The notes: a model not told the origin generated them from the letters alone. 64,000 nucleotides of DNA from an uncultured Actinomycetes bacterium (GCA_963714865.1 CAVQPR010000001.1:402474-466473); one strand, 5' to 3'; positions 15,308-44,661 are shown, counted from the stretch's first letter. Numbers and translations are program-made.

Positions 15308-15916
15308 CTAGTGCGTGATCCCATCCCGCGCAGCGCCCGCGCGCTTCGCGGTTCGGATGTCCTCCATGTACAGGAGCGCCGCCAGGTAGTACTCGACGAT
15401 GCCGACGGGGTAGGCGACCCATCCGACGACGAGCGCGGCATCGCCTAGCGGGTAGCCCAGTGTCCCCCAGGCGATGGCGGGGATCGCCGTCATCAGGGTG
15501 AACGTGGCCGCCTTGCCGATGAACCTGACGTCCACACGCTCGTGCCACAGGAACAGCACCGCCGCGCCGACGCCGAGCACGGCCAGGTCTCGAGCCAGGA
15601 CCAGCACGCCCGCCCACATCGGAAAGGCGCCACGTACCATCAGCGCGATCAGGCCGGCGGCGATCGCAAGTCGATCGGCCACGGGGTCGAGGATCTTGCC
15701 GAGGTCGGACACCTGCCCCGTCGTTCGCGCCACCCAGCCGTCGACCCAATCGGTCGCAAGGACAAAGCCGAACAACACGATCCCCCACTCCGTCGTGTCG
15801 GGATCGACGATGAGCGCCCAGAAGACAGGGATCAACAGGATGCGCAGCGTCGACAGGAGATTGGGGATCGTCCAGACGGCGGACGATGCCGGCGTGGACT
15901 CCCCCGTCGGTCTCAT
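15308..15916 (-). CDS. pgsA: CDP-alcohol phosphatidyltransferase (PgsA-like)
   Basis: CDP-OH transferase motif (DxxDGxxAR...G...DxxxD) and several TM segments. Start at the ATG directly abutting the tRNA-Pro 3' end. Confidence 0.8.
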   Translation of the reverse strand: MRPTGESTPASSAVWTIPNLLSTLRILLIPVFWALIVDPDTTEWGIVLFGFVLATDWVDGWVARTTGQVSDLGKILDPVADRLAIAAGLIALMVRGAFPMWAGVLVLARDLAVLGVGAAVLFLWHERVDVRFIGKAATFTLMTAIPAIAWGTLGYPLGDAALVVGWVAYPVGIVEYYLAALLYMEDIRTAKRAGAARDGITH

Positions 15917-15918
15917 TC

Positions 15919-15995
15919 GGTCGGGCCGGCCGGATTCGAACCGGCGACCTTCTGACCCCCAGTCAGACGCGCTAACCAAGCTGCGCCACGGCCCG
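15919..15995 (-). tRNA. tRNA-Pro (anticodon GGG)
   Basis: Full cloverleaf folded by hand: acceptor CGGGCCG/CGGCCCG, D-arm GCGC/GCGC, anticodon stem TCTGA/TCAGA with loop CTGGGGG, T-arm GCCGG-TTCGAAT-CCGGC, discriminator A. CCA is not encoded. Confidence 0.9.
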
Positions 15996-15996
15996 T
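15955..15996. repeat. attL core: left copy of a 42-nt direct repeat, lying inside the tRNA-Pro gene (its 5' 41 nt)
   Basis: Identical to 32010-32051, compared base by base. Confidence 0.85.
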
Positions 15997-16103
15997 TGAC
16001 CTGCGGTTATGCCCCTGCCACCGCTTGCACACCGACTTTACAGATGATAACCTGTCGGCGACTAACCAGGACAGGACAGCATCCGCAAGGGAGGGAGCTA
16101 GCG

Positions 16104-17087
16104 ATGGCAGAGACAAGAACCACGCTGCGAAGTGTACCGGAGCCGGACGCGCCGCAGGGCGACATCGAAGTCTGGGCCGCACGCTGGCGCAGGGAGCTAC
16201 GCGCCGACGGCAAGCAGGCCCGCACGATCACCGACTACGGGCGGACGCTGGACTACTTCGACGCCTGGCTCGCCGAGGAAGGTCGCTCCCGGTTCGTGGG
16301 CGATCTCACCCGCGCCGATGTCGAGGACTTCCGCGACCACTACCTCGACGGGACCAAGCCCGACGGCACCCCGTACTCCCGGGCCTCAGCGAAGGCGTAC
16401 ACGGCTTGCCTGCGGTCGTTCTTCCGCTGGCTGGCTGACGACCTCCCCGACCCGGACGGCATCCCCACCAACATCGCCGAGAAGGTCAAGCTGCCCATCG
16501 TCAAGCCCCAGGTGCAGGACGTGCCCACCGACGAGGACGTAGAGCGGGTGTTCAAGACCACCAAGGGGACGACGTTCGAGGATCTGCGGGACCGGGCCAT
16601 CCTCGGCTTCCTCATCACCACCGGCACCCGACTGAGCGGGGTCGCGGGGATCAAGCTGGAGGACGTCGACCTGGACGCCCACAACCCCCACTGCAAGATC
16701 ACGCTCAAGGGCGGGGCCGAGCATCGGGCGTACCTCAACCGCAAGGGACCACTCCCCCGCGACTTCGACCGCTACCTCGCTCGACGCGCCAAGCACCCGC
16801 ACGCCTCAAGCCCCTACCTGTGGATCGGCCGGCGGGGCAAGATGGGAACGTCGGGGATCTACCAGATGGTGCAGCGCCGAGCCGAGTCGGTCGGGGTCAA
16901 GATCACCGTCCACGACTTCCGCCGCTACGCCGCGTCGACGATGCTCAACCGAGGGGCGCGTCCCGACGACGTTCAGAACCTCCTCGGGTGGCAGGATCGG
17001 TCGATGCTGAACCACTACGTTGCCGCAACCGCGTCGGACCGGGCTGCCGAAGCTCTGACCCAGTTCGACCCTTCGATGCGGGAGTAG
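16104..17087 (+). CDS. int: tyrosine-type site-specific integrase
   Basis: C-terminal catalytic region (HDFRRYAASTML...LLGWQDRSMLNHY). AAGGGAGGG RBS. Immediately adjacent to the tRNA att site. Confidence 0.9.
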   Translation: MAETRTTLRSVPEPDAPQGDIEVWAARWRRELRADGKQARTITDYGRTLDYFDAWLAEEGRSRFVGDLTRADVEDFRDHYLDGTKPDGTPYSRASAKAYTACLRSFFRWLADDLPDPDGIPTNIAEKVKLPIVKPQVQDVPTDEDVERVFKTTKGTTFEDLRDRAILGFLITTGTRLSGVAGIKLEDVDLDAHNPHCKITLKGGAEHRAYLNRKGPLPRDFDRYLARRAKHPHASSPYLWIGRRGKMGTSGIYQMVQRRAESVGVKITVHDFRRYAASTMLNRGARPDDVQNLLGWQDRSMLNHYVAATASDRAAEALTQFDPSMRE

Positions 17088-18460: not shown

Positions 18461-18912
18461 CGCTGCTCCGCGAACCTCGCCACGATCCCCGGCTCGCCCG
18501 TGAGCCGGAGCTAGAGGCCGTCCACACCCTGCGCCGGCTGGCTCGCCGCATCGTCGAGGGTGCCCAGGATGGAGTCATCCCTCCCTCTGGACCCGATGGG
18601 TGGCCCCTGCGCCTGGTCAAGCTCGCCGAGATGATCCGCAAGGAGCCCTCCCCCATCCGCCAGTGGGCCGAACACGCGCTGGCACGCGAGGCCGAGCCAC
18701 TGTTCCGCGACCCCGACGCCGGCCAGCCCATCGCCCCATCGAGGGCGTACCGCGACCCGCTGCGGCAGATGATCCGCAAGGGGTTGGCAGCCTGCCCCGA
18801 GTGCAAGCGACCCCTCCCCTCCGATGCGGAGTGGGAACACTGGGCGATGCTCGACAGCCTGCAAGCGCGCCGGCGGGACGTTCGCAAGGGGGCCGTCGAT
18901 GGTCGCCTATGA
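18457..18912 (+). CDS. hypothetical protein
   Basis: GTG start overlapping the upstream stop. Contains a CPECKRP motif. Confidence 0.5.
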   Translation: MTLLREPRHDPRLAREPELEAVHTLRRLARRIVEGAQDGVIPPSGPDGWPLRLVKLAEMIRKEPSPIRQWAEHALAREAEPLFRDPDAGQPIAPSRAYRDPLRQMIRKGLAACPECKRPLPSDAEWEHWAMLDSLQARRRDVRKGAVDGRL

Positions 18913-20269
18913 GGAAGCCGAGCGGGTGTTAGGGCTCGTGTCCGAACCGGAGGTAGCGGCCGCGACAAGCCGCGAGTCCACGGCCCGTGACAAGTATTGG
19001 TACGCCGATCGGTTCCAACCTCCGCTGCTCGGGAGGGCTGCCGAGGCCCGGGTGCGACTCCGACTCGGCCCCGACGGACATCTGTGGCGTTACTCCCACG
19101 GCGTCTACCTCCCCGACGGCTCCGAGTGGTTGGCCGAGTTCGTCCGGGGAGAGTTGGGCGACGAGTTCCGCCGGCATCGACTCGGCGAGGTCGAAGCGTG
19201 GTGCAAGGCGAAGCACTCTGACCGGATCTCCATCGACCCCTCCCCCGATTGCGTCAACGTCAGGAACGGGTTGCTGTATCCGTTCGGCGACTCGCCCGAG
19301 CTGGAGCCGCATGACCCCGAGGTCGTGAGCCTCGCCCAGATAGATGCGGCGTGGGAACCCGAGGCCGACTGCCCCAACATCCTGCGTTTCCTGATCCAGT
19401 CATTCCCCGATCAGACGAACGAGGTCGTCGCCTTCTTGATGGAGTGGGTCGGGTACTGCCTGGTCCCGTCCCAGCGACTCAAGAAGGCCCTGATGCTCTG
19501 CGGGCCGTCGAACACCGGCAAGTCGGTCCTGTTGGCGGTCATCGAGCGATTGCTGGGGTCGGTCAACGTGAGCAACAAGACGTTGCAGACGATCTCGGAT
19601 AACCGCTTCGCGGCGGCAGGGCTGTACGGCAAGCTCGCCAACATCTGCGCCGACCTGGACGCAAAGACGCTCAAGCAGACCGGCATGTTCAAGGCGATCA
19701 CGGGGGGTGTTGACTCCATCGACGCCGAGCGCAAGTACGGCGACTCGTTCTCGTTCGTGCCGTATAGCCGCCTGATGTTCTCGGCCAACAATCCCCCCGG
19801 CACGCCTGACCAGACGACCGCGTACTACGGTCGGTGGCTACTGTTGCCGATGGCGCAGGTTCGCACACAAGCCGACCAAGATCCAGGGTTGATCGACCGT
19901 CTGACGACCGATGCGGAGATGTCGGGCCTGCTGCGCCACGGCGTCAACGGGATGCGGCGACTGATGGATCGGGGCCACTTCGATGAACCCCCGCTGATGA
20001 CGAAAGCCGGGACCGACTACCGGGCCAAGACCGATACCGTCGTCGGCTACGTCGAGGACCGATGCGAGTTCGACCCCGACGCGCGAACCCGAACCTCTGC
20101 GCTCTATTCCGACTACAAGACGTGGTGCGAGGAGGTCGGCAAGCACCACTTGAGTGAGGGCAACTTCCGAGCGCAACTAGACGACACCTACGAGCTAGCG
20201 GACCTGCATCCGAAGTCGGCGGGATACCCAACGTGGTTCGGGATCAGACCGGCGTACCGCGACCCATAA
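18899..20269 (+). CDS. phage/plasmid primase, P4 family (D5-like NTPase C-terminal domain)
   Basis: Walker A motif LCGPSNTGKS, plus the D5_N-like and primase C-terminal architecture. Start overlaps the upstream gene. Confidence 0.85.
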   Translation: MVAYEEAERVLGLVSEPEVAAATSRESTARDKYWYADRFQPPLLGRAAEARVRLRLGPDGHLWRYSHGVYLPDGSEWLAEFVRGELGDEFRRHRLGEVEAWCKAKHSDRISIDPSPDCVNVRNGLLYPFGDSPELEPHDPEVVSLAQIDAAWEPEADCPNILRFLIQSFPDQTNEVVAFLMEWVGYCLVPSQRLKKALMLCGPSNTGKSVLLAVIERLLGSVNVSNKTLQTISDNRFAAAGLYGKLANICADLDAKTLKQTGMFKAITGGVDSIDAERKYGDSFSFVPYSRLMFSANNPPGTPDQTTAYYGRWLLLPMAQVRTQADQDPGLIDRLTTDAEMSGLLRHGVNGMRRLMDRGHFDEPPLMTKAGTDYRAKTDTVVGYVEDRCEFDPDARTRTSALYSDYKTWCEEVGKHHLSEGNFRAQLDDTYELADLHPKSAGYPTWFGIRPAYRDP

Positions 20270-20322
20270 GCAAGGGTGTAGAATCCGCGACCGGACCCCT
20301 GGGGGTGATCTCCTTTCACGAG

Positions 20323-20729
20323 GATGTATCAGCCAAGCCCCCGGGGGTTCTTTCTACCCCCACCCCATAAGCACGACCCCTCGCGTGACCCCCACCCCAT
20401 AAGCAAGTGCCGGCGATCCGGGGGGGTCCCTTGTGCTTCGGCGACACCCCCACCGGGGGCCTATCCCAGTGTCCGCGCCCATTAGAGTCGCAGCCGACGG
20501 TTATACGCACTGATAGCAAACCCGGCCACCGAACATAATGGGATGAGATACCCCCTACCCCTCGCGTGATCCCCTACGCGCGGAGGTATTCAGTGTCTAT
20601 CTTCGCAGGTCAGACCCCCTATGGCAGTCATCCCCCGTTACGATCTCGTGACGAGATCCCTTGAGAATCTTCCGCGAAAGGCTTTACTTCCATGCCTATA
20701 TGTCCGATACTTTCCTTGGCTGATACATC
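20323..20729. repeat. noncoding repeat module of about 400 bp, bounded by 15-bp perfect inverted repeats (GATGTATCAGCCAAG)
   Basis: Inverted repeats at 20323-20337 and 20715-20729. Inside are two copies of CCCCCACCCCATAAGCA (20357-20373 and 20389-20405), two copies of CCCCTCGCGTGA, and an ATAAGCAAG motif that recurs at 20262 and 22479. Confidence 0.65.
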
Positions 20730-20747
20730 GAGTGAAAGGAGTCAGCC

Positions 20748-20945
20748 ATGCGGACAGTAGAGATTCCTTGGTATTGCGCTAACGCGGAAGATCCATCCGC
20801 GCTAGAGCAGATCGAATCGGGTTGGGACGATTGCCCCGGCTGCGGCGGGTTGGCGTGCGTTCTGGAGTCCAACCCGCTTGACGAGTACCTCGCGCAATGC
20901 CCGAACCCGGGATGCGAGCTGCGCTATGTGGTCGTGATCCCATGA
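20748..20945 (+). CDS. small zinc-ribbon-like protein
   Basis: Strong RBS (AAAGGAG). Cysteine pairs CPGCGG...CPNPGC. Confidence 0.55.
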   Translation: MRTVEIPWYCANAEDPSALEQIESGWDDCPGCGGLACVLESNPLDEYLAQCPNPGCELRYVVVIP

Positions 20946-21193
20946 CCGCCATGACGCGCCAACACTTCACGTTCATCGCCGACGTGCTGAGCGAGTCTTA
21001 CCCGGTCGGCGGATACCCCAGCGGGCCCGACGACGACGCTATGCGGCGAGCCTATTGGGAATGGCTCGTGCGCTACTTCGGCGAACGGCTGCGCGAAACG
21101 AATCCGGGTTTCAATCCGGAACGGTTCGCCGACGCATGCCGGCGGGTTATCGAGATCGACGAGACATCCAGCGCGAACTACGGGGAGGTCTGA
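20942..21193 (+). CDS. hypothetical protein
   Basis: ATGA overlap with the upstream gene. 83 aa. Confidence 0.5.
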   Translation: MTAMTRQHFTFIADVLSESYPVGGYPSGPDDDAMRRAYWEWLVRYFGERLRETNPGFNPERFADACRRVIEIDETSSANYGEV

Positions 21194-21195
21194 CC

Positions 21196-21681
21196 ATGAC
21201 ACTCGACCATGACGTCCTATTCGATATCGAGACCTACGCTGACCGTAGCGGCACCCCCTACCCCACGATCCAGCTAACGGCCGGCACCTATGGGGATGAC
21301 CGCTACCGCGCCGTCAAACGGCTGGAGCGCGACGGTAGGGTCCGCATCGTTCACGACCGCTGGGGATGGTCCTATGTCTCGACGCTCCGCGCGTCGATCA
21401 GCATCGGGCGCGAGGTTCACGGGTTGCCGCACGAGGTACAGGGTTCGGCCGACCACGCGCTGCGATGGGAAACGGGGGAACGCGAGCAACACTGCGCCTA
21501 CCTCGAGAACACCTATGCGGACGGATACCCGGGATACCTCGAGCGGTACCTCGCGGGGATCTCGAGCCGCGCACGGTGCGACAACGCGCGGAGGTCCGAC
21601 GGCTGTATCTACTGCGACGGCCGACCGCACGATAGGCGCGCGTCACACTTCGCGCGCACGGCACGGGAGGTGGCAGCATGA
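21196..21681 (+). CDS. hypothetical protein
   Basis: GGGGAGG RBS. 161 aa. C-terminal Cys/His cluster (CDNARRSDGCIYCDGRPHD). Confidence 0.55.
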   Translation: MTLDHDVLFDIETYADRSGTPYPTIQLTAGTYGDDRYRAVKRLERDGRVRIVHDRWGWSYVSTLRASISIGREVHGLPHEVQGSADHALRWETGEREQHCAYLENTYADGYPGYLERYLAGISSRARCDNARRSDGCIYCDGRPHDRRASHFARTAREVAA

Positions 21682-21992
21682 CCGTTGACCTGACCACGCC
21701 GACGTTCGAAACGATCAGCGAAACGCGACTGCCGTTCAAGGACGGCAAAGAGATAGTCGTCGCGCTGCGGCGCTCGCCCAACGGCCATGCTGCGGTCGAT
21801 GTACGCGAGCACGTGCTGGCATCGGATGCGCCCGTGATCGTGGGCAAGGGTAAGTCTCGACGGGTCCGCTCAGACTTCACGGGTCCGACTCGATGCGGAT
21901 TCTGGATGCCGAACCCGTCAACCCTGCTGGATCTGGCCGACGCTATCGCACGCTACGCGCTGGAGCTGGAGACCCTGCAAACGACGGATTGA
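21678..21992 (+). CDS. hypothetical protein
   Basis: Start overlaps the upstream stop. 104 aa. Confidence 0.5.
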   Translation: MTVDLTTPTFETISETRLPFKDGKEIVVALRRSPNGHAAVDVREHVLASDAPVIVGKGKSRRVRSDFTGPTRCGFWMPNPSTLLDLADAIARYALELETLQTTD

Positions 21993-22166
21993 CTGCACTG
22001 AGCGCGCGGCACGCTGGCCCCTCGACGCTACCGCGAGGTCGGGGGGTCTCGTGCGCCCGAGGGGGGAACCCGACGCGCCGGCCACCGATCTGGCCCCCGA
22101 AACACTCCCCCAACCGGATAGGGCCACTGACCTGGGCATATGCGAAAGTCGGGGGAGTCACGGGAC

Positions 22167-22210
22167 CCAAAAACCGTTAGATGAAAGTCAGTTTCATTCT
22201 AGGGTTTTTG
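22167..22210. terminator. bidirectional intrinsic-terminator-like hairpin
   Basis: CCAAAAACC...ATGAAA-gtcag-TTTCAT...GGTTTTTG. Stem-loop with U-runs on both strands, located between convergent gene sets. Confidence 0.5.
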
Positions 22211-22899
22211 ACTCCCCAAGACTCCCCAAGGTCCCCCAACCAGATCACTACCGCTGATGGCGGATGCTAAGCATTACTCCCCGCACGGGCGAACCTCCGC
22301 CCTCGCATGGCCGCATGGCACGCGAGACACCCCCACGATCCCAGCTACCGCACGCTCAGCTACAGTCTGCTAACCAGTTGTTAGCCTCTCTACCCCGCGC
22401 GACCACGACGCGCTGACCTGCACGTTTGTCCGTCGTCGGTCGCGCTACTCCGCGTGGTTAGTGACTGTACGCATGGGATAAGCAAGTAGGTGAGCGTGGG
22501 GTGCGGGCCAACTATCGGTACCGTCCGCCGGCGGGCGGGGGTGTGTCCCTGTCTCGCGATCATGACGGGGGCGAGGGGGGTGCCCCGACCGGGGTCCATT
22601 ACGTGGGGGCACTGTGATGTATATGTGAACCGTGAAACATTACCCCGCAGTGTTTCTCACCGATGAGCTTACCAGCCTCCCGCTGCGAACTACAGAAGTG
22701 TCATTCTCCACGTTTCTAAGCCCTCGCCGAAGGTTGACTAGGTACTTCGTACTAGTCCGGGGCGACCCACGGCTTAGAGGGGCTGAGAACGCCGAAAGCG
22801 GGGTGCCTAGCCGCCAGGACGGCTGGAACGGATCCGTTGGGTCGGGTCTCCTGGCGGCAAGCCGAAGCCACCGGAGCGACCCTTGGTAGTCGAGATGGC

Positions 22900-32009: not shown

Positions 32010-32051
32010 ACCCCCAGTCAGACGCGCTAACCAAGCTGCGCCACGGCCCGT
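32010..32051. repeat. attR: right copy of the 42-nt direct repeat (partial tRNA-Pro 5' half)
   Basis: Identical to 15955-15996. No T-arm or acceptor 3' half follows it. Confidence 0.85.
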
Positions 32052-43717: not shown

Positions 43718-44661
43718 GTCGTTCCCTCCACCGTGCCACCACGGGCGCGAGGGTGGGACGTGAGGTACACCTCGCGCAGGTGTTCGTCGGTCACCAGCGT
43801 GTAGATCTGGGTCGTCGCCACACTCGCATGGCCCAGGAGTTCCTGCACCACGCGGACGTCGGCCCCGCCCTCGAGCAGATGTGTCGCGAACGAGTGTCGC
43901 AGGGTGTGCGGGGTCACGCGCGCCTGGATGCCGGCGAGCCTCGCGTGGTTGGCGATGAGCCGGTTGGCGCTTTGGCGGGTCAGGCGCCCTCCCCTGCTGT
44001 TGAGGAACAGCGCCCCGCGGGTCGTCGGCCCCGCCAGCTCCGGGCGCGCCCGCGACAGATAGGCCTCCGCCGCCGCTCGGGCGTATCCGCCCAGCGGTAC
44101 CTCGCGCTCCTTTCCCCCTTTGCCCAAGACACGCACCGTCGCCCCTTCCGTCTCGATGTCGTCGACGTCGAGCGCGGTCAGCTCTGAGATGCGCAGCCCG
44201 GCCCCGTACAAGATCTCGAGGATCGCCCGATCGCGGATCCCCGTCACGGTATCCTCGTCCGGCGCGTCGATGAGGCGCAGTACCTCCTCGACCGAGATGG
44301 GATGAGGCAGGGCGCGCGGCAGCTTCGGACGAGCCACGCTCGCTGCAGGATCGCGGTCCGTGACCCCTTCACGAAGCAGGAACCGGTGGAACGACCGGAC
44401 GCTGGACAACGCGCGGGCCACCGTGGTCGGCCGGTACGGACGCTCGTCAGGACCATGGGTCGAAGCGGACACCGCTGCCACGAACGCCCGGATCACCCGT
44501 TCGTCGACCTGAGAGGCCCGTGAGACGCCCCGCGAGCCCAGGAACTTCACGTAGCGGGTCAGGTCGCGCCGATAGGCACCTAGCGTGTGGTCGGATAGGC
44601 CCCGCTCCACCACGAGGTGATCCAGGTACCTGCCGACCTCCACTGCGAGGGTCTCGGCCAC
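43714..44661 (-). CDS. xerD: tyrosine recombinase XerD
   Basis: Catalytic [12 protein letters not shown]...[13 protein letters not shown]. Start at a GTG preceded by GGAGGG. Confidence 0.85.

What the first reader, a model, noticed from the sequence alone, without database searches (positions are those of the whole stretch)
20323..20729. Noncoding module of about 400 bp bounded by 15-bp perfect inverted repeats, with internal direct repeats, directly downstream of the primase
GATGTATCAGCCAAG at 20323-20337 is matched by its exact reverse complement at 20715-20729. Between them lie two 17-nt direct repeats (CCCCCACCCCATAAGCA, 32 nt apart), two CCCCTCGCGTGA copies and poly-C/G tracts. An ATAAGCAAG motif recurs at 20262 and 22479. 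The position right after the primase gene and the iteron-like content suggest the element's replication origin. The inverted-repeat-bounded architecture would also fit a MITE-like insertion. The right repeat ends 19 nt before the next gene's RBS.
Basis: seen in the sequence. Interest (0 to 1): 0.55.

Follow-up and report, generated by a model that had tools for sequence, protein, structure and literature searches.

The report
Orphan control region after helicase gene
A 480-bp non-coding stretch in a 16-kb integrated mobile element really has a long inverted repeat and iteron-like repeats, but the repeat most plausibly clamps the ribosome-binding site of the next operon, while the family's conserved origin-like structure lies 1.9 kb further downstream.

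Summary
The inverted repeat is longer than reported: 15 perfect bp plus 10 more perfect bp (20310-20337 / 20715-20741). The outer right arm is the Shine-Dalgarno sequence GAAAGGAG of the next gene, and the outer left arm copies the 16S rRNA 3' tail.

The region follows an SF3 helicase gene homologous to the SaPI5 PriRep5 helicase, inside a 16-kb element integrated at tRNA-Pro.

It is non-coding, matches no Rfam family, and has no homologue in any collection searched.

GGGGGT/ACCCCC hexamers occur 8 times against 0.37 expected.

Close relatives carry a conserved SaPI-like origin palindrome: opposed iterons around an AT-rich centre. It starts about 10 nt after the helicase stop codon in two relatives. 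In this window it lies at 22151-22237. So the finding is probably not the element's main origin.

A MITE is unlikely. No other copy was found, and the internal repeats cross the inverted-repeat boundary.

Best reading (confidence about 0.4): a lineage-specific control region. The repeat forms a -43.5 kcal/mol RNA clamp that blocks translation of a tightly coupled four-gene operon. The repeats are protein-binding sites and may act as an auxiliary replication site.

Interest is modest.

The parts
18899..20269 (+).
   Evidence: Pfam hits. The identical protein is P0001. It is homologous to the helicase part of SaPI5 PriRep5 (PDB 7OLA, E 2.5e-9; identity of that entry confirmed).
20263..20274 (+). 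CCCATAAGCAAG, first copy of the repeat motif. It overlaps the helicase stop codon and lies outside the inverted repeat.
20279..20284 (+). TAGAAT, candidate -10 box upstream of the left arm. A transcript starting here would contain both arms.
   Evidence: TAGA[AG]T occurs only 5 times on the + strand of the 64-kb window. Its function as a promoter is inferred, not shown.
20310..20319 (+). Left outer arm CTCCTTTCAC, an anti-Shine-Dalgarno mimic. CTCCTTTC is identical to the 3' tail of the host 16S rRNA.
   Evidence: (I6)
20323..20337 (+). Left inner arm GATGTATCAGCCAAG
   Evidence: (I2)
20356..20405 (+). Two perfect 18-nt direct repeats, ACCCCCACCCCATAAGCA, at 20356-20373 and 20388-20405, spaced 32 nt apart. 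They sit in the most C-rich, G-poor stretch of the module.
20295..20640 (.). Cluster of GGGGGT/ACCCCC hexamers. On the + strand: 20301, 20343, 20422. On the - strand: 20356, 20388, 20446, 20550, 20614. This is also the densest region of G5+/C5+ runs in the whole window.
   Evidence: 8 observed against 0.37 expected
20376..20569 (+). Two perfect 13-nt direct repeats, ACCCCTCGCGTGA, at 20376-20388 and 20557-20569, spaced 181 nt apart
20483..20488 (+). TAGAGT, candidate internal -10 box. A transcript starting here would lack the left arm.
   Evidence: Inferred only.
20715..20729 (+). Right inner arm CTTGGCTGATACATC
20732..20741 (+). Right outer arm GTGAAAGGAG. It contains the 8-nt Shine-Dalgarno sequence GAAAGGAG of gpA, 6 nt before the ATG.
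20748..21992 (+). Four-gene operon: gpA 20748-20945, gpB 20942-21193, gpC 21196-21681, gpD 21678-21992. The genes are tightly packed: ATGA overlaps link gpA-gpB and gpC-gpD, and 2 nt separate gpB from gpC. gpA is an ORFan.
   Evidence: No homologues in the syntenic relatives. A few distant homologues exist for gpC and gpD.
22151..22237 (.). Family-conserved origin-like palindrome. GGGGGAGTC sits on the left, a 41-nt centre of 32% GC in the middle, and GACTCCCC x2 plus GGTCCCCC on the right. It opens a conserved non-coding region of about 500 nt ('nc2') running to about 22640.
15955..15996 (.). Left copy of the 42-nt direct repeat that bounds the 16-kb element. It is the 5' half of tRNA-Pro(GGG); the tRNA gene is at 15919-15995 on the - strand.
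32010..32051 (.). Right copy of the 42-nt direct repeat (the other end of the element)

Best explanation
The whole intergenic stretch 20263-20747 is a lineage-specific control region, not only the part between the 15-mers. It lies between the SaPI-Rep-like helicase gene and a tightly coupled four-gene operon (gpA-gpD). In this element lineage that operon separates the helicase gene from the conserved origin-like palindrome at 22151-22237.

Two separate functions are proposed.

(1) RNA clamp. The 25-bp interrupted inverted repeat acts at the RNA level. The left arm is an anti-Shine-Dalgarno mimic about 420 nt upstream. It pairs with the right arm, which contains gpA's unusually strong Shine-Dalgarno sequence. 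Any transcript carrying both arms would be translationally closed or become an RNase III substrate. Such transcripts are read-through from the helicase operon or starts at the TAGAAT box at 20279. Transcripts starting inside the module, for example after TAGAGT at 20483, or RNAs processed there, would leave the Shine-Dalgarno sequence open. Because gpA-gpD are closely packed (two ATGA overlaps, one 2-nt gap) and so probably translationally coupled, this one site could gate the whole operon.

(2) Protein-binding sites. The direct repeats and G/C-tract hexamers are DNA-binding sites for an element-encoded protein, either the helicase/initiator or a regulator. The same kind of site recurs in the origin-proximal region nc2. 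The module may therefore also serve as an auxiliary cis-replication site, like crr of phage P4.

Shown here: the sequence features, their statistical excess, the thermodynamic switch, the synteny, and the lack of conservation.

Inferred: transcription start sites, actual RNA pairing in vivo, and any protein binding.
For: - The inverted repeat extends to 15+10 perfect bp, and the right outer arm is the Shine-Dalgarno sequence.
- The left outer arm equals the 16S rRNA 3' tail.
- In 64 kb, GAAAGGAG sits in front of a gene at only two places: gpA, and on the minus strand near 44107 (the latter inferred, not checked). Its other matches are the left arm itself and the complement of the 16S 3' tail.
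- The duplex energy is -43.5 kcal/mol. When the left arm is in the RNA, the pairing probability is 0.996 and the Shine-Dalgarno sequence is about 0% unpaired. Without the left arm, most of its positions are unpaired.
- The composite repeat was reached in 1 of 150 simulations.
- gpA-gpD are linked by two ATGA overlaps and a 2-nt gap.
- Two of the five + strand TAGA[AG]T hexamers in the window lie in this region, one upstream of the left arm and one inside the module.
- The module is absent from syntenic relatives that share p81, p138, p151 and the helicase.
- For the DNA-binding part: GGGGGT/ACCCCC occurs 8 times against 0.37 expected. G5+/C5+ runs peak in the module and in nc2 and nowhere else in the window. 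ATAAGCAAG occurs only in the module region (twice) and in nc2 (once), against 0.02 expected.
Against: - There is no transcript evidence.
- The promoter calls rest on a hexamer only, and the standard sigma-70 scan found nothing convincing.
- All 25 pairs are Watson-Crick with no G-U. That equally fits a DNA-level or recently formed repeat.
- With a single sequence and no homologues, no covariation test is possible.
- A strong local hairpin around the left arm (-33.5 kcal/mol) could compete kinetically with the long-range pairing.
- The interior is no more structured than shuffled sequence (z about -1.2). Nothing points to a ligand- or protein-sensing RNA fold.
- The iteron of the conserved palindrome (GGGGAGTC) is only weakly over-represented in the module.
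Confidence: 0.4

Rival explanations
1. The module is a replication origin, or a second cis-replication region, used by the adjacent SF3 helicase/initiator. The repeats would be iterons. The inverted repeat would mark or structure the unwinding or priming zone.
For: - It starts at the helicase stop codon. In SaPIs the iterons lie immediately downstream of rep (PMC9371898). In many relatives opposed iterons lie 0-200 nt after the stop.
- There are 8 enriched hexamers in both orientations.
- It shares G/C-run density and the ATAAGCAAG 9-mer with the conserved origin-like region.
- GC falls from 0.75 to 0.45-0.5 towards the right end.
Against: - There is no central AT-rich core flanked by opposed tandem iterons. 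That structure, with the clade's conserved centre and the iteron GGGGAGTC, lies at 22151-22237.
- The module has no homologue in any relative.
- The 18-nt repeats occur in direct orientation only, and no inverted copy exists in the window.
- This reading does not explain why the inverted repeat contains the ribosome-binding site.
Confidence: 0.25
2. The 407-bp unit is a MITE-like non-autonomous transposon with 15-bp terminal inverted repeats and a 3-bp GAG target duplication. It would have inserted into a pre-existing hairpin (CTCCTTTCAC-GAG-TGAAAGGAG) over the gpA ribosome-binding site.
For: - The terminal repeats are perfect.
- GAG flanks both 15-mers, at 20320-20322 and 20730-20732.
- Removing the unit leaves a 10-bp-arm palindrome.
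- The unit has no coding capacity.
Against: - No second copy exists in the 64-kb window.
- The terminal repeat plus 5 degenerate bases gave only 20 single matches in unrelated taxa among 185,579 species genomes, within the number expected by chance (my estimate, about 34). None was paired.
- The paired-terminus search found nothing in metagenomes. The terminal-repeat search found nothing in viral contigs.
- The whole region has no blastn match in phages or plasmids.
- The 12-mer CCCATAAGCAAG and the GGGGGT/ACCCC motifs occur both inside and outside the unit. The interior is therefore not foreign to its flanks.
- A 3-bp match has a 1/64 chance.
Confidence: 0.07
3. The inverted repeats are recombination sites of an invertible DNA switch, like fimS or other invertons, that flips an internal promoter towards or away from gpA-gpD.
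For: - Inverted repeats of 15-28 bp flank about 380 bp of intergenic DNA directly upstream of an operon.
- A tyrosine recombinase is encoded in the element.
- A candidate -10 box lies inside the segment.
Against: - No dedicated invertase is adjacent. The only recombinase is the integrase 3.2 kb upstream, which has its own att repeats.
- The candidate promoter is central rather than near an end.
- The inverted repeat includes the ribosome-binding site, which is not typical of invertons.
- No second orientation could be examined.
Confidence: 0.07
4. The arms form an rRNA-like processing stalk. RNase III would cut there and release a stable, C-rich non-coding RNA of about 380 nt.
For: - A 25-bp interrupted duplex is a plausible RNase III substrate.
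- The fold z-score with the arms included is -4.4.
- The C-rich repeats could in principle pair with G-rich Shine-Dalgarno regions.
Against: - The interior folds no better than shuffled sequence on either strand.
- No Rfam family matches even at E<=10.
- No tmRNA or tRNA was found there.
- There are no homologues, so there is no covariation support.
Confidence: 0.08
5. The inverted repeat is a neutral by-product, such as a template-switch (quasi-palindrome) mutation that copied the RBS region in inverted orientation. The repeats are decaying remnants without function.
For: - All pairs are Watson-Crick, consistent with recent formation.
- The sequence is an orphan.
- The element looks cryptic, with mostly ORFan genes.
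Against: An RBS-blocking repeat would be costly if the operon matters. Several independent repeat families and a 20-fold motif enrichment in one 480-bp stretch are hard to explain as neutral.
Confidence: 0.1

Closest known systems
SaPI/PICI replication origin (Rep self-loading helicase plus iterons; Ubeda et al. 2007 and 2012, as summarised in PMC9371898)
   Same: The adjacent protein is homologous to the SaPI5 PriRep5 helicase. The module begins at the stop codon of that gene and holds 8 short hexanucleotide repeats in both orientations.
   Different: The defining layout is missing from the module: an AT-rich centre with at least two iterons on each side pointing in opposite directions. That layout is present 1.9 kb downstream at 22151-22237 and is conserved in relatives. 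The module adds a 400-nt-range inverted repeat that SaPI origins do not have.
Phage P4 bipartite ori / crr (own knowledge: Flensburg & Calendar 1987; Ziegelin et al. 1993). P4 alpha has an SF3 helicase followed by a C-terminal winged-helix DNA-binding domain (PMC2777425).
   Same: There are two separated non-coding regions in one small integrative element with a P4-alpha/D5-type helicase. One adjoins the helicase gene and is built of direct repeats. The two share short motifs (ATAAGCAAG and G/C runs).
   Different: The principal iteron of the conserved palindrome (GGGGAGTC) is not clearly reused in the module. A requirement in cis is untested. P4 crr has no flanking inverted repeat or RBS overlap.
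Long-range RBS-masking RNA pairings (own knowledge: the MS2 Min Jou interaction, hok mRNA fold-back inhibition, RNase III-processed leaders of lambda and T7 genes)
   Same: An upstream segment hundreds of nucleotides away is perfectly complementary to the Shine-Dalgarno region of the regulated gene. Predicted occupancy is about 100%.
   Different: The upstream arm lies in non-coding DNA rather than in a translated gene, so no obvious ribosome-driven opening exists. The duplex is unusually long and perfect. Nothing has been shown experimentally.
MITEs / foldback elements
   Same: A short non-coding unit with perfect terminal inverted repeats and a possible 3-bp duplication.
   Different: It is single-copy as far as can be seen. 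The inverted repeat continues beyond the putative duplication. The interior motifs are shared with the flanks.
Invertible promoter switches (fimS-type invertons; own knowledge)
   Same: The geometry matches: short inverted repeats flanking a few hundred bp just upstream of an operon.
   Different: There is no neighbouring invertase, no promoter near an end, and no evidence of two orientations.

Membership tests
SaPI-type Rep/iteron origin | Located immediately downstream of the rep (helicase/initiator) ORF | tested here: met
   The non-coding stretch starts at the stop codon (20269), and the first repeat copy overlaps it. The helicase is homologous to PriRep5.
SaPI-type Rep/iteron origin | Six to twelve penta- or hexanucleotide iterons | tested here: inconclusive
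   There are 8 GGGGGT/ACCCCC hexamers against 0.37 expected. Whether they are initiator sites is unknown. The clade's conserved iteron is GGGGAGTC.
SaPI-type Rep/iteron origin | Central AT-rich region with at least 2 iterons on each side pointing in opposite directions | tested here: not met
   The orientation order in the module is + + - - + - - -. The only opposed pair is 7 nt apart. The layout is met instead at 22151-22237, which has a 41-nt centre of 32% GC.
SaPI-type Rep/iteron origin | Cognate design conserved in related elements, with iterons co-varying with the initiator | tested here: not met
   The module has no nhmmer or blastn match in 115 related or other loci. The palindrome at 22.2 kb does match.
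SaPI-type Rep/iteron origin | Initiator binds the iterons and the region supports replication | not testable with these tools
   This needs EMSA or footprinting and a plasmid replication assay.
MITE | Terminal inverted repeats | tested here: met
   15 bp perfect.
MITE | Target-site duplication directly flanking the terminal repeats | tested here: inconclusive
   GAG lies on both sides. It is only 3 bp and is embedded in the outward continuation of the inverted repeat.
MITE | Multiple dispersed copies in the genome or in related genomes | tested here: not met
   None in the 64-kb window. None paired among 185,579 species genomes, in metagenomes or in viral contigs. Caveats: only exact patterns were searched, and the host genome itself is not in the collections.
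MITE | Interior unrelated to the insertion-site flanks | tested here: not met
   CCCATAAGCAAG occurs at 20263 (outside) and 20396 (inside). The ACCCC/GGGGGT motif occurs at 20295-20306 (outside) as well as inside.
Invertible promoter switch | Inverted repeats flanking an intergenic segment upstream of a gene | tested here: met
Invertible promoter switch | Dedicated site-specific invertase encoded nearby | tested here: not met
   The only recombinase domain found is the integrase in ORF 15474-17087.
Invertible promoter switch | Both orientations present in a population | not testable with these tools
   No reads or alternative assemblies are available.
Long-range RBS-sequestering leader RNA | Upstream segment complementary to the Shine-Dalgarno region and thermodynamically dominant | tested here: met
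   25 bp, -43.5 kcal/mol, pairing probability 0.996, Shine-Dalgarno sequence about 0% unpaired.
Long-range RBS-sequestering leader RNA | Both arms present on one transcript, and translation changes when the pairing is broken | not testable with these tools
   Only candidate -10 hexamers at 20279 and 20483 are available.
Described RNA families (Rfam 15) | Covariance-model match | tested here: not met
   No hit at gathering thresholds or at E<=10 on 20200-20800. No tRNA or tmRNA.
P4-like bipartite ori/crr | Two separated cis regions carrying the same initiator-binding repeat | tested here: inconclusive
   The two regions share ATAAGCAAG (3 copies in 64 kb) and G/C-run density. GGGGAGTC within 1 edit occurs at about 5 distinct sites in the module against about 1.5 expected.

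The most novel reading that the evidence does not exclude
The region is a promoter-choice-dependent (or RNase III-dependent) translational gate. A 16S-tail mimic about 420 nt upstream clamps the Shine-Dalgarno sequence of an accessory operon. The operon would then be silent on read-through transcripts of the replication module and open only on transcripts born inside the region. At the same time the region doubles as a crr-like second binding platform that communicates with the true origin 1.9 kb away. This would be a combined replication and translation control node in an actinobacterial SaPI-like element.
Probability: 0.2. Interest if true: 0.5.

Novelty: new member of a known kind. Interest (0 to 1): 0.3.

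Why it matters
Small integrative elements with P4/SaPI-type helicases are abundant in high-GC Gram-positive bacteria but almost unstudied. Knowing where their origin lies and how accessory operons are insulated from the replication module is needed to annotate and engineer them.

This case shows that 'iterons after the helicase gene' is not sufficient to call an origin. In this element the conserved origin-like palindrome has been displaced by a 1.9-kb insert. The insert starts with its own control region, whose most striking feature is a very long-range ribosome-binding-site clamp.

If the clamp works as predicted, it would be a simple, portable translational insulator. If not, the finding remains an ordinary orphan intergenic region.

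Tried and rejected
- Rfam at gathering thresholds on the whole window, and a sensitive scan of 20200-20800: nothing at the locus. ARAGORN found no tRNA or tmRNA there.
- Folding the interior alone: not more stable than shuffles on either strand. I therefore dropped the 'large structured ncRNA' idea as the main reading.
- Coding remnant: no codon-position GC signal. The internal ORFs of 53 and 67 aa lack a plausible RBS.
- Homology searches for the 481-bp region all gave nothing or chance-level hits:
  - blastn against phages and plasmids;
  - nhmmer and blastn against all fetched loci and the rest of the window;
  - exact-pattern scans of genome, metagenome and viral collections.
- The host genome itself could not be retrieved, so genome-wide copy number remains untested.
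- Single-protein search for related loci in genomes and viral contigs found no relatives. The alignment-based metagenome scan gave 80 distant loci.
- gpA homologue search, made to look for an 'empty site': gpA is an ORFan.
- A pattern for the conserved palindrome in viral contigs: no hit.
- A standard sigma-70 promoter/terminator scan and a TTGNNN/TANNNT scan gave nothing convincing.
- Retron, DGR, integron attC and CRISPR-like readings were considered and dropped. There is no reverse transcriptase, no recombinase and no array architecture nearby.

Full report
OBSERVATION. The reported 15-bp inverted repeat is exact: 20323-20337 and 20715-20729, with 377 nt between the arms. On its own it is not very improbable. 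About 0.23 perfect repeats of 15 bp or more, with a 50-1000 nt gap, are expected per 64-kb window of this composition.

The repeat continues outward. After a 3-nt/2-nt internal loop, a second perfect 10-bp arm follows: CTCCTTTCAC at 20310-20319 and GTGAAAGGAG at 20732-20741 (pair I6). Only 1 of 150 simulated windows reached 25 paired bases in this form; typical maxima were 15-20.

The direct repeats are real.
- ACCCCCACCCCATAAGCA, actually 18 nt, occurs at 20356 and 20388.
- ACCCCTCGCGTGA (13 nt) occurs at 20376 and 20557.
- CCCATAAGCAAG occurs at 20263 and 20396, with a one-mismatch copy at 20364.
- ATAAGCAAG occurs three times in 64 kb against 0.02 expected: at 20266, 20399 and 22478.

The stretch shows no codon-position GC periodicity, unlike its neighbours. 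One detail of the finding is wrong: the right 15-mer ends 19 nt before the ATG of the next gene, not before its RBS. The RBS lies inside the extended right arm.

CONTEXT. The window is a high-GC bacterial chromosome with an rRNA operon and one tRNA-Pro.

A perfect 42-nt direct repeat (15955-15996 and 32010-32051) delimits a 16-kb element of lower GC. The repeat equals the 5' half of the tRNA-Pro gene.

The left arm of the element encodes:
- a tyrosine integrase;
- a weak excisionase-like protein;
- two small proteins, p138 and p151;

The 'primase' is an SF3 helicase with D5_N, DUF5906 and Pox_D5 C-terminal domains. Its only solved relative is the helicase part of SaPI5 PriRep5 (7OLA, E 2.5e-9).

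Four genes follow the 478-nt non-coding stretch: gpA 20748-20945, gpB 20942-21193, gpC 21196-21681 and gpD 21678-21992. ATGA start/stop overlaps link gpA-gpB and gpC-gpD, and a 2-nt gap separates gpB from gpC. gpA carries an 8-nt perfect Shine-Dalgarno sequence. In the window, GAAAGGAG sits in front of a gene at only one other place, on the minus strand near 44107; that site was not checked.

RELATIVES. The closest helicase homologues are only 55% identical.

Loci L001-L003 share the order integrase, reverse gene, p81, p138, p151, helicase.

In this clade the helicase gene is followed by a palindrome of about 85 bp. It has two tandem iterons on one side, a conserved AT-rich centre (GAAAG..TTTCA..AGGG), and two inverted iterons on the other side.
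- In L006 and L112 it starts about 10 nt after the stop codon (centre motif at +43 and +45).
- In L001-L003 it follows one extra ORF (centre motif at +504 in L002 and L003).
- In the window its centre motif is 1,914 nt after the stop, and the palindrome spans 22151-22237.

The iteron GGGGAGTC is shared by the window, L001-L003 and L006. L112 uses GGTGAC/GTCACC.

More distant relatives use other iterons but the same layout, within 0-200 nt of the stop (L029, L030, L037, L044, L046, L056).

This is the design reported for SaPI origins: iterons immediately downstream of rep, a central AT-rich region, and at least two iterons on each side in opposite orientation (PMC9371898).

The window's region from 22100 onwards is homologous to L003 over about 490 nt (nhmmer E 1.3e-11) and to L002 and L001.

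By contrast, the 20270-20747 stretch matches nothing:
- not the relatives;
- not the rest of the window;
- not phages or plasmids;
- not genome, metagenome or viral collections, searched by exact patterns.

gpA is an ORFan. gpC and gpD have a handful of distant homologues.

So in this lineage about 1.9 kb sits between the helicase gene and the conserved origin-like palindrome. It consists of the module, gpA-gpD and a 158-nt spacer.

WHAT THE MODULE CONTAINS. GGGGGT/ACCCCC hexamers occur 8 times in 478 nt against 0.37 expected from the window.

Runs of five or more G or C are denser in 20251-20500 (8 per 250 nt) than anywhere else in the 64 kb. The next densest bins are in the conserved non-coding region at 22.0-22.75 kb.

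Together with the shared ATAAGCAAG 9-mer, this links the two non-coding regions. It suggests binding sites for a common element-encoded protein.

The clade iteron GGGGAGTC itself is only weakly over-represented in the module: about 5 distinct sites within one edit, against about 1.5 expected.

The repeat motifs are not confined by the inverted repeat. CCCATAAGCAAG overlaps the helicase stop codon at 20263, and ACCCCTGGGGGT lies at 20295-20306. Both are outside the left arm. The natural unit is therefore the whole intergenic region, not the 'IR-bounded module'.

THE INVERTED REPEAT. The right outer arm is gpA's Shine-Dalgarno sequence. The left outer arm, CTCCTTTC, is identical to the 3' tail of the host 16S rRNA.

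As RNA the two arms form a -43.5 kcal/mol duplex. In any transcript containing both arms, the pairing probability is 0.996 and the Shine-Dalgarno sequence is essentially never unpaired. In transcripts beginning downstream of the left arm, most of its positions are unpaired and sit in a hairpin loop.

The z-score of -4.4 for the whole region comes from this stem alone. The interior folds no better than shuffled sequence (z about -1.2 on both strands).

The Streptomyces-type -10 hexamer TAGA[AG]T is my own recollection of the consensus. It occurs only five times on the + strand of the window:
- once in the integrase-proximal intergenic region (17204);
- once just upstream of the left arm (20279);
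- once inside the module (20483);
- twice inside the rRNA genes.

This gives a simple but unproven model. RNAs that include the left arm are closed for translation, or are cut by RNase III. RNAs that start inside the module are open. Because gpA-gpD are closely packed and probably translationally coupled, the clamp could gate the entire operon.

RIVALS.
- Origin or auxiliary origin (0.25). Position and repeats fit, and SaPI and P4 provide precedents. But the family's defining layout is elsewhere in the element, and nothing in the module is conserved.
- MITE (0.07). The terminal repeats are perfect and there is a possible 3-bp GAG duplication. But there are no other copies, the repeat continues beyond the duplication, and the interior motifs recur in the flanks. 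The host genome could not be searched.
- Inverton (0.07). The geometry fits, but there is no invertase and orientation cannot be tested.
- Processed ncRNA (0.08). The interior is not structured, there is no Rfam match, and there are no homologues.
- Neutral quasi-palindrome (0.10). All pairs are Watson-Crick and the sequence is an orphan. But several independent non-random features coincide.

COMPARISON AND VERDICT. The region works most like two known things at once.

Its repeats resemble iteron or operator arrays next to SaPI/P4-type initiator genes. It fails the membership test for a SaPI-type origin on layout and on conservation.

Its inverted repeat resembles long-range RBS-masking pairings known from RNA phages and from hok-type mRNAs (own knowledge). 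Here the sequence prerequisites are met, but the transcript-level features cannot be tested.

It is not a member of any described RNA family.

I rate it a new member of a known kind: an element-specific cis-regulatory or replication-associated intergenic region. Interest is modest, and the mechanistic reading carries a confidence of about 0.4.

The more informative by-product is that the conserved origin-like palindrome and a conserved non-coding block of about 500 nt lie at 22.1-22.7 kb.

Noticed in passing
window 22100-22700 (palindrome 22151-22237): This is a conserved non-coding region. It opens with an origin-like palindrome: GGGGGAGTC, a 41-nt centre of 32% GC, then GACTCCCC x2 and GGTCCCCC. 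About 400 nt of G-tract-rich sequence follows.

The region is homologous to L003 (E 1.3e-11), L002 and L001. L006 and L112 carry a palindrome of the same design; no sequence match was detected for L112. It is probably the element's real origin. The conserved downstream block might be an extended origin, a promoter region or an ncRNA. Rfam gives no significant hit.
   Followed up: partly
window 22590-22630; L003 4462-4505; L115 about 1150-1200: A short conserved block (CCGGGGTC[C/G]AT.. GGGTG..GTGTAT/TATATG), preceded by G-runs, is shared by three otherwise divergent elements. In L115 it lies after a gpD homologue and before large + strand ORFs of 608, 606 and more than 2000 aa. It may be a conserved promoter or packaging signal.
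   Followed up: partly
window 15919-15996 and 32010-32051: The element's 42-nt att repeat equals the 5' half of tRNA-Pro(GGG), from nt -1 to the anticodon loop. The element therefore lies on the 5' side of the intact tRNA gene, and the tRNA must be transcribed from within the integrase-proximal end of the element. The usual arrangement duplicates the 3' half, so this orientation is uncommon.
   Followed up: no
L113 6505-7719 (also L114): A related helicase gene sits next to an integrase and a resolvase. It is followed by a CRISPR-like array (repeat about CTTTCAACTCCCAACCTTCCAGGAATGGGGTGAGAC) and by cas6, DevR/cas7 and cas3 genes. This may be an element-borne type I CRISPR-Cas system.
   Followed up: no
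L006 5654-9405: A related element carries McrB/McrC-like genes (ScoMcrA_N, AAA_5, McrBC) downstream of the helicase and its origin-like palindrome. This looks like defence cargo in the same family of elements.
   Followed up: no
window 20290-20350: A strong local hairpin (-33.5 kcal/mol, z -3.2) pairs GGACCCCUGGGG with CCCCGGGGGUUC and encloses the left arm. It could kinetically compete with the long-range clamp, giving a metastable alternative structure.
   Followed up: partly
window 17204, 20279, 20483 (+ strand); 22201 (- strand): The hexamer TAGA[AG]T is very rare in the window: 5 on the + strand and 2 on the - strand. It is concentrated in the element's intergenic regions, including the centre of the origin-like palindrome on the minus strand. 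These are candidate -10 boxes.
   Followed up: partly
window 20748-21992: gpA is a 65-aa Cys-rich (CxxC...CxxxxC) ORFan. gpB, gpC and gpD match no Pfam or PHROG family. gpC has about 8 homologues among 1.8 billion representative proteins, and gpD has two at about 51% identity. This small, rare operon may be element-specific.
   Followed up: partly
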